In this document: positions 15,326 to 16,003 of the stretch, one piece after another
Layout of the letters: every line of letters starts with the position of its first letter
Numbering within the stretch: the stretch's first letter is position 1
From: Escherichia phage vB_EcoM-Ro157c2YLVW
Sequence record: NC_050153.1
DNA: 64,000 nt
Reading direction: 5' to 3' (one strand)
Notes under the pieces: generated by a model
What the model saw: only the letters and a program-made list of their open reading frames with translations
Told to the model about the DNA's origin: nothing
The model's database searches: none
Position numbers and translations under genes: made by a program

Positions 15326-16003
15326 ATGAATAACATGACAACGAAAGAGCTTTTGACGGCACTTCCAAAATACAAAAGCCATAAAACAGTTCGCGCCTCA
15401 AAAATCAAAGATATCGAAATTATCGCCCTAATGGATGTGGTCCTTTTTTGCAACATCGAAGTCGTTGAGCCAGAAGGGGTAAAAGTCCATGTTGATAAAA
15501 TATTTTTGCAAAAACACCGACCAGAAATTGGCGGATATCTGGTCGCTTATGAGGACGGATCTCTGTCCTATTCGCCAGAAAAAACATTTGAAGAAGGCTT
15601 TAGTCGGACTAACGACTTCTTCGAAAATGGGGTATCGCTCAGCATTGAAGGTCACAATGGGGTGACATTCATTACAGCCAGGGACGTAACTATTTCTGCT
15701 GGCGGTATCGCTACTCTACAAGAAGAAATCGACCTTGAAGCAGCCGACTTTTCTGACGCGCTGATGTGGCTGAAGGATGGCAAGAAAGTTGCCCGACGCG
15801 GGTGGAACGGCGAAAACCAATTCTGCTGGCTGGTTCCTGAAGGACAGTACCCGGCACGAATGGAAGCCATTAAGGGATATTTCCCCGGCGACCTCGTTCC
15901 GTATGGTGCTTATTTCGCCTTAAAAAATGCACAAGGTGTAGTTGTTCCGTGGGTTCCTTCTGTAGGCGACTTACTGGCATGTGACTGGTTTGTAGTGGAG
16001 TGA
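15326..16003 (+). CDS. Two-domain protein whose C-terminal roughly 80 aa resemble the DUF2829 (Tad2-like) fold
   Basis: C-terminal LKDGKKVARRGWNGENQF…LVPYGAYFALKNAQGVVVPWVPSVGDLLACDWFVVE fits the pattern I recall for DUF2829; start at ATG 15326 after agagg. Family assignment is from memory, not a search. Confidence 0.45.
   Translation: MNNMTTKELLTALPKYKSHKTVRASKIKDIEIIALMDVVLFCNIEVVEPEGVKVHVDKIFLQKHRPEIGGYLVAYEDGSLSYSPEKTFEEGFSRTNDFFENGVSLSIEGHNGVTFITARDVTISAGGIATLQEEIDLEAADFSDALMWLKDGKKVARRGWNGENQFCWLVPEGQYPARMEAIKGYFPGDLVPYGAYFALKNAQGVVVPWVPSVGDLLACDWFVVE

What the first reader, a model, noticed from the sequence alone, without database searches (positions are those of the whole stretch)
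15326..16003. Candidate DUF2829 / Tad2-like anti-defence domain fused to an unknown N-terminal domain, directly downstream of ssb
The C-terminal about 80 aa (…KDGKKVARRGWNGENQF…LVPYGAYFALKNAQGVVVPWVPSVGDLLACDWFVVE) match the motif pattern I remember for DUF2829, the fold of the Thoeris anti-defence protein Tad2. If correct, the phage-plasmid carries a candidate nucleotide-signal sponge. The assignment is from memory and needs a profile search.
Basis: inference. Interest (0 to 1): 0.55.

Follow-up and report, generated by a model that had tools for sequence, protein, structure and literature searches.

The report
Tad2 signal sponge fused to OB domain
A P1-like phage-plasmid carries a gene whose last third is a clear relative of Tad2, a phage protein that soaks up bacterial immune alarm molecules. 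That part is already annotated in databases, but its first third is an unstudied small barrel domain that keeps turning up fused to anti-defence proteins.

Summary
Window 15326-16003 (+) encodes a 225-aa protein directly downstream of ssb in a P1-like phage-plasmid (99% identical to Salmonella phage SJ46).

**Tad2 domain (aa 138-225).**
- It matches Pfam PF11195 at E=1.6e-22.
- It keeps the W-N...W..S..D ligand-contact residues.

**How new the Tad2 call is.** Not new. RefSeq names the protein DUF2829, and a 2025 survey found Tad2 in 56% of P1 and 93% of D6 phage-plasmids. No experiment on this protein was found.

**Gene context.**
- P1 itself lacks exactly this gene, as a 684-bp indel.
- The gene lies in the ssb-isaA operon behind a C1 operator-like site.
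- Its segments are shuffled among relatives.

**N-terminal domain (aa 5-96).**
- It is a confidently predicted OB fold, distantly related to the phage L Dec decoration protein.
- It has no Pfam model but about 2,650 cluster representatives.
- Among 148 representatives, the only significant Pfam partners are four signal-sponge families: Sequestin, Acb4, Tad2 and Acb2/Tad1.
- One further member, found in a separate search, carries a T7 gp5.9 RecBCD-inhibitor domain.
- This recurrent fusion partner has not been described.

Verdict: an ordinary Tad2 member in an uncharacterised architecture.

The parts
14604..14620 (+). C1 repressor operator-like site (GTTGCTCTAATTATTTT) upstream of ssb, homologous to P1 Ossb/Op21
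   Evidence: P1 annotation of Ossb. The P1 sequence is ATTGCTCTAATTAATTT and the window differs at 2 of 17 positions. Function in this element is inferred.
14640..15128 (+). ssb, first gene of the operon
   Evidence: ORF; NCBIfam SSB 2.6e-81; 96-99% DNA identity to P1/SJ46 ssb.
15129..15325 (+). 197-nt leader shared with P1, where it precedes isaA; probably non-coding
   Evidence: 98.6% identical to P1 over window 14600-15329. No terminator-like site on the + strand.
15326..16003 (+). OB-Tad2 gene, 225 aa
   Evidence: ORF and RBS. 100% identical to cluster P0001, which has 453 member sequences. PHROG 872 full length, 1.8e-59.
15330..16013 (.). 684-bp gene-sized segment absent from phage P1 (in-frame indel between the leader and isaA)
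   Evidence: blastn of the window against P1: query 1-730 and 1415-2193 align, the middle does not.
15338..15613 (+). N-terminal Dec-like OB-fold domain (aa 5-96)
15614..15736 (+). Linker (aa 97-137), low-confidence, variable between alleles, with weak resemblance to the start of the Dec stalk
   Evidence: pLDDT <50. Segment identity 41-95% among P1-like alleles. The profile alignment reaches Dec residue 117 with low posterior.
15737..16000 (+). Tad2 (DUF2829) domain (aa 138-225)
15803..15811 (+). W160-N161-G162, beta1-beta2 loop of the ADPR-signal pocket
   Evidence: Aligns with SPO1 W25/N26 and HgmTad2 W21/N22/G23. W160 is invariant in 36 homologues.
15836..15910 (+). beta2-beta3 insertion (aa 171-195), the region that forms the second (cyclic-nucleotide) pocket in HgmTad2 and MoTad2; hypervariable between alleles
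   Evidence: Same length class as ModTad2. 20-40% identity in alleles whose flanks are 88-100% identical. Pocket role taken. pLDDT <50 for 178-190.
15950..15970 (+). W209-V-P-S212-V-G214-D215, second half of the ADPR-signal pocket
   Evidence: Aligns with SPO1 W73, S76, T78, D79 and HgmTad2 W87, S90, T92, D93. The adenine-contacting Thr is Gly here and Ser in ModTad2.
16010..16792 (+). isaA homologue (260 aa, function unknown), the constant downstream partner of the gene
   Evidence: 95% identical to the body of P1 IsaA. PHROG 2326. A 48%-identical homologue follows the Tad2 gene in D6-like elements.
16793..16820 (+). Intrinsic terminator closing the ssb/OB-Tad2/isaA unit
   Evidence: 12-bp stem with 7 GC pairs and a T-rich tail; the only + strand terminator-like site in 14400-17200.

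Best explanation
The gene encodes a two-module anti-defence protein of a P1-like phage-plasmid. It is transcribed with ssb from a promoter behind a C1 operator-like site, so it would be made early in lytic growth and on entry into a new cell. The C-terminal 88 residues are a Tad2 domain. By analogy with solved Tad2 proteins, four copies would assemble into a tetramer with two pockets at protomer interfaces. These pockets would bind and sequester the ADP-ribose-derived alarm molecule made by Thoeris TIR proteins, so the Thoeris effector is never switched on. The closest characterised relative is ModTad2, which takes His-ADPR (type II Thoeris) in that pocket and cUMP/cCMP (Pycsar) in a second one. 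His-ADPR is therefore the most likely ligand, but the ligand is not established. The N-terminal OB-fold domain sits on a flexible linker of about 40 residues and is a separate module. Its most likely role is a second, still unknown anti-defence activity, or a shared helper function for such inhibitors. What is shown: homology, fold, conserved pocket residues, gene context, and cassette-like presence/absence. What is inferred: tetramerisation, ligand binding, ligand identity, timing of expression, and the role of the N-terminal domain.
Against: No binding or phage assay exists for this protein or for any Tad2 with this architecture. Such proteins were explicitly removed from the largest functional screen (Hadary et al., methods). 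The Thr that hydrogen-bonds the adenine in SPO1 and HgmTad2 is Gly214 here. Positions matching SPO1 T65, D67 and H71 are N201, Q203 and V207, so specificity cannot be read from the sequence. The residues that make ModTad2 prefer His-ADPR are not given in the texts I could read. Tetramer formation could not be modelled. If the linker forms a Dec-like trimeric stalk, it would clash with tetramer symmetry. The operator differs from P1 Ossb at 2 of 17 positions, and no promoter was found by the simple scan. The window protein departs from the N-domain family at two near-invariant positions, S79 and F92.
Confidence: 0.7

Rival explanations
1. It is a capsid-associated protein. The N-terminal part is a Dec-like decoration module (OB domain plus trimeric stalk) that binds the P1-type capsid. 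It would then display or tether the DUF2829 domain on virions or on assembling capsids, for example to sit where capsid-sensing TIR or CD-NTase proteins are triggered.
Against: The gene is in the ssb operon, not in a head or late module. P1 builds virions without it. Most stand-alone homologues lie in early, replication or small-gene regions. The family keeps a polar residue set (H19, K20, H64, Y75, D77, Y79, S81, S83) in phages of unrelated hosts with unrelated capsids, and Dec lacks all of these; that argues for a conserved ligand or target rather than each phage's own capsid. The D6 derivative drops the domain and keeps Tad2. The stalk similarity is weak and the segment has pLDDT <50.
Confidence: 0.1
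2. It is an anti-CRISPR of the AcrIIA7 type. DUF2829 proteins were first reported as inhibitors of type II-A Cas9.
For: The domain matches PDB chains named 'Inhibitor of Type II CRISPR-Cas system' and 'AcrIIA7' (8kbi 9e-12, 9kzr 9e-11). DefenseFinder labels the family 'Tad2 AcrIIA7'.
Against: Li et al. could not reproduce Cas9 inhibition by AcrIIA7/HgmTad2 in vitro or in vivo, and showed that it is a gcADPR and cyclic-dinucleotide sponge. From general knowledge, not tested here: E. coli and Salmonella carry type I rather than type II CRISPR systems. The window domain is closer to ModTad2 than to AcrIIA7.
Confidence: 0.03
3. The fusion has no function of its own. It would be a recombination by-product in a hypervariable insertion hot spot, with either half, or the whole protein, inactive.
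For: The locus is a hot spot: IS1 in P1, a split gene in RCS47, and deletion fusions such as dUTPase-Tad2. The window protein has S79 and F92 at two near-invariant N-domain positions.
Against: The identical 225-aa sequence stands for 453 member sequences, and dozens of diverged full-length alleles keep both domains intact. The same architecture occurs in unrelated lytic Klebsiella phages (SopranoGao) and in both domain orders (P0257 against P0182). The Tad2 pocket residues are invariant.
Confidence: 0.05

Closest known systems
ModTad2 / MoTad2 (Myroides odoratus prophage Tad2; PDB 9EIB, 8V3E)
   Different: ModTad2 is a stand-alone 89-aa protein, while this one has 137 extra N-terminal residues. 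Ser in WTPSVSD is Gly214 here. The insertion sequence differs. No ligand is known for the window protein.
SPO1 Tad2 (Gp34.65; PDB 8SME) and HgmTad2/AcrIIA7 (PDB 8KBI)
   Same: Same Pfam family and fold. Conserved Trp/Asn/Trp/Ser/Asp contacts to the ribose-phosphate core of gcADPR.
   Different: Lower similarity (E 1e-9 and 9e-12). The adenine-contacting Thr is absent. HgmTad2's cyclic-dinucleotide pocket residue R31 is V170 here, and its long insertion is missing.
Fused sponge proteins: Acb4-Tad2 (Pasteurella phage Pm86), Tad2-Sequestin, Sequestin-Acb4 (Tal et al. 2025)
   Same: A Tad2 domain joined by a linker to another small phage module. Close relatives of the window's Tad2 domain (about 80% identical) carry Sequestin at their C-terminus in other roughly 90-kb contigs. 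The idea is one protein blocking several signals.
   Different: The partner here belongs to no validated sponge family and has no Pfam model, so the Pfam-portal fusion screen that found Sequestin could not see it. Proteins with this partner (PDB 6E3C-like) were removed from the Tad2 functional screen.
Phage L Dec capsid decoration protein (PDB 6E3C)
   Different: Dec lacks the polar residues that are near-invariant in the N-domain family. It is encoded after the lysis genes and decorates capsids as a trimer through a beta-helix stalk (Dec biology from general knowledge). The window gene is in an early ssb operon, and its stalk-like segment is only weakly similar.
Tad2 hits in P1/D6 phage-plasmids (DefenseFinder survey, bioRxiv 10.1101/2025.09.12.675607)
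   Same: The same gene family in the same elements: Tad2 detected in 56% of P1 and 93% of D6 phage-plasmids.
   Different: The survey lists presence only. It does not describe the domain architecture, the cassette boundaries, the mosaic alleles or the N-terminal domain.

Membership tests
Tad2 / DUF2829 (PF11195) | Profile match above the curated threshold | tested here: met
   80.2 bits against a cut-off of 25, E=1.6e-22, profile positions 2-73 of 73.
Tad2 / DUF2829 (PF11195) | Fold: N-terminal helix followed by an antiparallel sheet with an insertion between beta2 and beta3 | tested here: met
Tad2 / DUF2829 (PF11195) | Ligand-contact residues of the ADPR-signal pocket (SPO1 W25, N26, W73, S76, T78, D79; HgmTad2 W21, N22, G23, W87, S90, T92, D93) | tested here: met
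   W160, N161, G162, W209, S212 and D215 are present; only the Thr is replaced, by G214.
Tad2 / DUF2829 (PF11195) | Homotetramer with pockets at protomer interfaces | not testable with these tools
   Only single-chain prediction was available; helix alpha1 is well conserved with ModTad2.
Tad2 / DUF2829 (PF11195) | Sequesters a TIR-derived signal and relieves Thoeris defence | not testable with these tools
   Needs binding and phage assays. None was found in the literature for this architecture.
ModTad2 clade (His-ADPR / type II Thoeris, cUMP / Pycsar) | Closest to ModTad2 among characterised Tad2 proteins, with the same insertion length class | tested here: met
   E=6e-21 against 9e-12 or weaker for the others; alignment.
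ModTad2 clade (His-ADPR / type II Thoeris, cUMP / Pycsar) | Residues that select His-ADPR or cUMP | not tested
   These residues appear only in figures, not in the texts held.
Phage L Dec decoration protein family | N-terminal OB fold homologous to Dec | tested here: met
Phage L Dec decoration protein family | C-terminal trimeric beta-helix stalk | tested here: inconclusive
   The profile alignment extends to Dec residue 117 with low posterior. The segment has pLDDT <50.
Phage L Dec decoration protein family | Encoded and expressed with late or structural genes; present on capsids | tested here: not met
   The gene lies in the ssb operon behind a C1 operator-like site and P1 lacks it. Virion association itself was not testable.
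Two-sponge fusion proteins (Tal et al. 2025) | Both fused modules belong to experimentally validated sponge families | tested here: not met
   The N-domain has no Pfam, NCBIfam or PADLOC match. It is none of Tad1, Acb2, Acb4, Sequestin, Lockin, TadIV-1 or the RyR-like Tad, judged by fold descriptions.
AcrIIA7 anti-CRISPR | Inhibits type II-A Cas9 | not testable with these tools
   Homology only. The published activity was not reproducible.

The most novel reading that the evidence does not exclude
The N-terminal Dec-like OB domain defines a large, undescribed family of phage anti-defence modules: about 2,650 cluster representatives, usually 85-100 aa stand-alone proteins in early regions. It could be a further immune-signal sponge, a signal-degrading enzyme, or a common helper for such inhibitors. 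If so, the P1-type protein is a two-headed inhibitor. The family was missed because it has no Pfam model, and proteins carrying it were filtered out of the published Tad2 screen.
Probability: 0.35. Interest if true: 0.75.

Novelty: new variant of a known kind. Interest (0 to 1): 0.5.

Why it matters
P1-like and D6-like phage-plasmids are common in pathogenic E. coli, Shigella and Salmonella and move resistance and virulence genes. A signal sponge made on entry would help them establish in strains armed with Thoeris-type immunity.

The wider point is methodological. Sequestin was discovered because it is fused to Tad2 and Acb4. The OB domain described here shows the same pattern with four sponge families, and also occurs fused to a RecBCD inhibitor, yet it has not been tested. 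If it is active, it adds a widespread family to the phage counter-defence repertoire. It would also give a handle on what its many stand-alone copies do.

The allele mosaic points to where selection acts. N-domain, linker and pocket insertion are swapped independently. The D6 deletion keeps only the Tad2 domain.

Tried and rejected
- **N-domain naming.** Pfam on aa 1-139, and NCBIfam and PADLOC on the full-length protein, gave nothing. PHROGs gave only 'unknown function' families.
- **Fold libraries.** The AlphaFold-database fold library was not available. BFVD returned only uncharacterised viral proteins and a 'putative MazG' carrying the same domain.
- **Other sponge families.** I asked whether the N-domain is Lockin, TadIV-1, Acb3 or the RyR-like Tad. 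All were rejected from their published fold descriptions and distribution.
- **Neighbouring sponge genes.** I looked for separate Tad2, Sequestin or Acb4 genes next to stand-alone N-domain genes in six loci, using home-made HMMs. None was found.
- **GTG 15158 start.** Rejected, because D6-like plasmids have the dut stop 14 nt before the same ATG and the P1 indel starts at the ATG.
- **dUTPase-Tad2 as an independent architecture.** Rejected. It is a roughly 451-bp deletion between dut and the OB-Tad2 gene, at a shared GAGG junction.
- **Promoter scan.** It found no site, not even the promoters annotated in P1, so it is uninformative.
- **P0126.** The phmmer match of this 2,604-aa protein to the N-domain was not reproduced with my profile.
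- **His-ADPR-specific residues of ModTad2.** These could not be obtained from the held texts.
- **Second word-indexed protein search.** Run with the N-domain profile, it returned only 37 proteins and added little beyond the gp5.9 fusion.

Full report
**1. Observation**

The window holds an ORF at 15326-16003 (+). It starts at an ATG preceded by AGGA and encodes 225 aa. It lies 197 nt downstream of ssb (14640-15128; NCBIfam SSB 2.6e-81). The replicon is a P1-like phage-plasmid. The region is 99% identical to Salmonella phage SJ46, 96% identical to P1 where they align, and matches 620 plasmid records, nearly all from Escherichia and Salmonella. The window has the P1 gene order darB, prt, pro, lyz, ssb ... 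hxr, ddrB, darA.

**2. The C-terminal domain is a Tad2 domain**

- Pfam PF11195 'Tad2-like' scores 80.2 bits (cut-off 25), E=1.6e-22, over residues 141-224.
- Against PDB sequences the domain matches ModTad2 (9EIB) and 8V3E at E=6-8e-21. It matches HgmTad2/AcrIIA7 (8KBI) at 9e-12, SPO1 Tad2 (8SME) at 1e-9 and SptTad2 at 3e-9.
- An AlphaFold2 model built on 36 homologues has pLDDT 80-90 in this domain, except the insertion at 178-190.

The published ligand contacts are as follows:
- SPO1 Tad2: W25, N26, W73 and D79, with T78 and S76.
- HgmTad2: W21, N22, G23, W87, S90, T92 and D93. The double and triple mutants lose binding.

In my alignment these correspond to W160, N161, G162, W209, S212, G214 and D215. 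Everything is kept except the adenine-contacting Thr, which is Gly here and Ser in ModTad2. W160, W209 and D215 are invariant in 36 homologues.

**3. Which ligand**

[quoted passage not shown] MoTad2 also binds cUMP/cCMP in a second pocket formed by the insertion region. Other Tad2 proteins take 3'cADPR, N7-cADPR or cyclic dinucleotides.

The window domain is closest to ModTad2 and shares its insertion length. It lacks HgmTad2's R31 (V170 here) and its long insertion. Type II Thoeris is TIR cluster 1 in the E. coli survey PMC11350192. His-ADPR is thus the best guess, but it is a guess.

**4. Gene context**

- **Operon.** P1 annotates a C1 operator (Ossb/Op21) over the ssb promoters. The window has the same site with two substitutions at 14604-14620. 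There is no + strand terminator between ssb and the gene. The only one (12-bp stem) follows the next gene, isaA, at 16793-16820. Co-transcription with ssb as an early, repressor-controlled unit is inferred from this.
- **Cassette.** P1 lacks exactly window 15330-16013, which is 684 bp and in frame. In P1 the same leader therefore runs straight into isaA. The gene is a dispensable cassette.
- **Second location.** In D6-like plasmids the same gene (84% nucleotide identity) with an isaA homologue sits after dut, near the recombinase gene.
- **D6 deletion derivative.** The D6-type 'dUTPase-Tad2' protein (P0056) is a roughly 451-bp deletion between dut and this gene at a shared GAGG junction. It removes dUTPase motif V and the whole N-terminal domain, and leaves the Tad2 domain 100% identical. 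This shows that the Tad2 domain is what is retained.
- **Mosaic alleles.** Alleles are mosaic. P0004 is 65% identical in the N-domain but 100% in Tad2. P0003 is 93-100% identical everywhere except the insertion, which is 36% identical.
- **Prevalence.** 213 of 5,426 complete E. coli genomes carry the gene, and 213 of 220 places are on plasmids.

**5. What was already known**

RefSeq calls the protein 'DUF2829 domain-containing protein', and UniRef calls a relative 'Thoeris anti-defense Tad2 family protein'. A 2025 preprint ran DefenseFinder on phage-plasmids and reported Tad2 in 93% of D6 and 56% of P1 elements. I found no experiment on this protein. Hadary et al. removed Tad2 homologues that also carry 'PF21825 or PDB 6E3C' domains before choosing proteins to test. 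So this architecture was seen and set aside.

**6. The N-terminal domain**

Residues 5-96 fold confidently: pLDDT about 90 in the full model, and 88.8 mean with pTM 0.79 when modelled alone. The fold is a small beta-barrel. It has no Pfam, NCBIfam or PADLOC match.

*Relation to Dec.*
- A 19-sequence profile hits the phage L decoration protein Dec (6E3C) at E=2.1e-5 over Dec 14-91.

*Distribution.*
- The domain alone, used as query against 1.84 billion cluster representatives, finds 2,650 proteins at E<=1e-3.
- Of the best 148, 60 are stand-alone proteins of 85-100 aa. The rest carry extensions on either side.

*Fusion partners.* Scanning all 148 against Pfam gives only these families at E<=1e-3; two marginal hits to unrelated families at E of 1e-4 to 1e-3 are the only others:

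| Pfam family | Identity | Count |
|---|---|---|
| PF21825 | Sequestin | 7 |
| PF13876 | Acb4 | 4 |
| PF11195 | Tad2 | 4 |
| PF24729 | Acb2/Tad1 hairpin | 1 |

The identities of PF21825 and PF13876 as sponges come from Tal et al..

With home-made profiles I mapped the following architectures:

| Architecture | Members |
|---|---|
| N-dom-Tad2 | P0182, P0214 |
| Tad2-N-dom | P0257 |
| N-dom-Sequestin | six members |
| N-dom-Acb4 | P0133, P0187, and P0161 with two N-domains |
| N-dom-Acb4-Sequestin | P0255 |

Further partners:
- One member found in the N-domain profile search carries a T7 gp5.9 RecBCD-inhibitor domain.
- Longer relatives insert a MazG-like segment between the N-domain and Tad2.

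Because the query was the N-domain alone, the partner list is not biased by the window's own Tad2.

*Dec-like, or something else?* Across 143 diverse representatives the family keeps H19, K20, H64, Y75, D77, Y79, S81, S83, E89 and Y92 at 94-100%. Dec has different residues at all of these except E89 and Y92, and shares only the fold-determining residues.

Such a conserved polar set, in phages of Ralstonia, Caulobacter, Pseudomonas, Klebsiella and E. coli, argues for a conserved ligand or host target. It argues against binding to each phage's own capsid. This is an inference.

Contexts of stand-alone copies:
- Mostly early or replication regions: next to NinB, upstream of DNA polymerase, beside MazG and ligase, or among small genes.
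- Two exceptions: between portal and capsid genes in Ralstonia GP4, and in the dec-like slot of a P22-like phage.

The 40-residue linker is poorly predicted and only weakly similar to the Dec stalk. The window protein itself has S79 and F92. Published sponge families (Tad1, Tad2, Acb2, Acb4, Sequestin, Lockin, TadIV-1 and a RyR-like Tad) do not include this fold. No paper in the held library combines 'OB-fold', 'sponge', 'Thoeris' and 'phage'.

**7. Mechanism**

- **Most likely (about 0.7 for the Tad2 part).** The protein is an early, repressor-controlled accessory protein. Its Tad2 domain tetramerises and sequesters a TIR-derived ADPR signal, keeping the Thoeris effector silent. The insertion may add a second pocket for a cyclic nucleotide.
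- **N-domain.** It is a separate module, and I favour an anti-defence role (about 0.35-0.4 for a distinct activity of its own).
- **Rivals.** A capsid tether (0.1), an anti-CRISPR (0.03) and a functionless by-product (0.05). The evidence for and against each is listed in the Rival explanations section.

**8. Verdict**

The observation and interpretation are confirmed. As a Tad2 member the gene is ordinary and already annotated. The new points are:
- the cassette boundaries;
- the domain-level mosaicism;
- the origin of the D6 fusion;
- the identification of the fusion partner as a Dec-related OB domain that recurs with four sponge families.

The last point is a testable lead, not a demonstrated function.

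Noticed in passing
window 15158-15325 and 16010-16792; L001 3059-4021: P1's annotated IsaA (320 aa from a GTG) is a 56-codon leader read in frame into the IsaA body. In this window the same GTG reads into the OB-Tad2 gene instead. The leader is probably non-coding, so the P1 isaA start is likely over-extended.
   Followed up: partly
L005 3501-4226 (P0056); L014 992-2178: The D6-type 'dUTP diphosphatase' of 241 aa is a deletion fusion of dut and the OB-Tad2 gene at a shared GAGG junction. It lacks dUTPase motif V, so it is probably not an active dUTPase despite its database name.
   Followed up: yes
window 16010-16792; L005 4233-5000; L014 2185-2991: An isaA homologue (PHROG 2326, function unknown, no Pfam) always follows the Tad2 gene, after ssb in P1-like and after dut in D6-like elements. 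The first 14 residues are identical although the rest is only 48% identical. This suggests a recombination joint, or a functional pair.
   Followed up: partly
phage RCS47 FO818745.1 about 14769-15950 (hit H11): In the ESBL-carrying P1-like phage RCS47 the gene is annotated 'part 1'. The match stops at about window 15782, inside the Tad2 domain, next to an annotated inverted repeat, so the gene appears to be interrupted by an insertion. In P1, IS1 sits just downstream of isaA. The locus looks like an insertion hot spot.
   Followed up: no
P0280 (171 aa, metagenome): The N-terminal OB domain also occurs fused to a T7 gp5.9-type RecBCD inhibitor domain (PF25708, E=4.9e-14). Its partners are therefore not only signal sponges.
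   Followed up: partly
L006 3501-4076, L007 3501-4370: In other roughly 90-kb contigs, Tad2 domains about 80% identical to the window's are fused to Sequestin at the C-terminus. They sit between a RecA-dependent nuclease gene and a HigB/HTH toxin-antitoxin pair, a different locus from the one here.
   Followed up: partly
P0057, P0100, P0110 (310-356 aa): Three-module relatives have the OB domain, then a segment matching PHROGs 419/4502/1810 and weakly a nucleotide pyrophosphohydrolase PHROG, then Tad2. BFVD also lists a 394-aa Vibrio phage 'putative MazG pyrophosphatase' carrying the OB domain.
   Followed up: no
P0126 (2,604 aa): phmmer reported eight stretches of a giant protein matching N-domain residues 51-91. 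My N-domain profile did not reproduce any of them, so this is probably a compositional match.
   Followed up: partly
window 16793-16820: A strong intrinsic terminator (12-bp stem, 7 GC pairs) lies immediately after isaA. It faces the convergently oriented hxr-ddrB genes.
   Followed up: no
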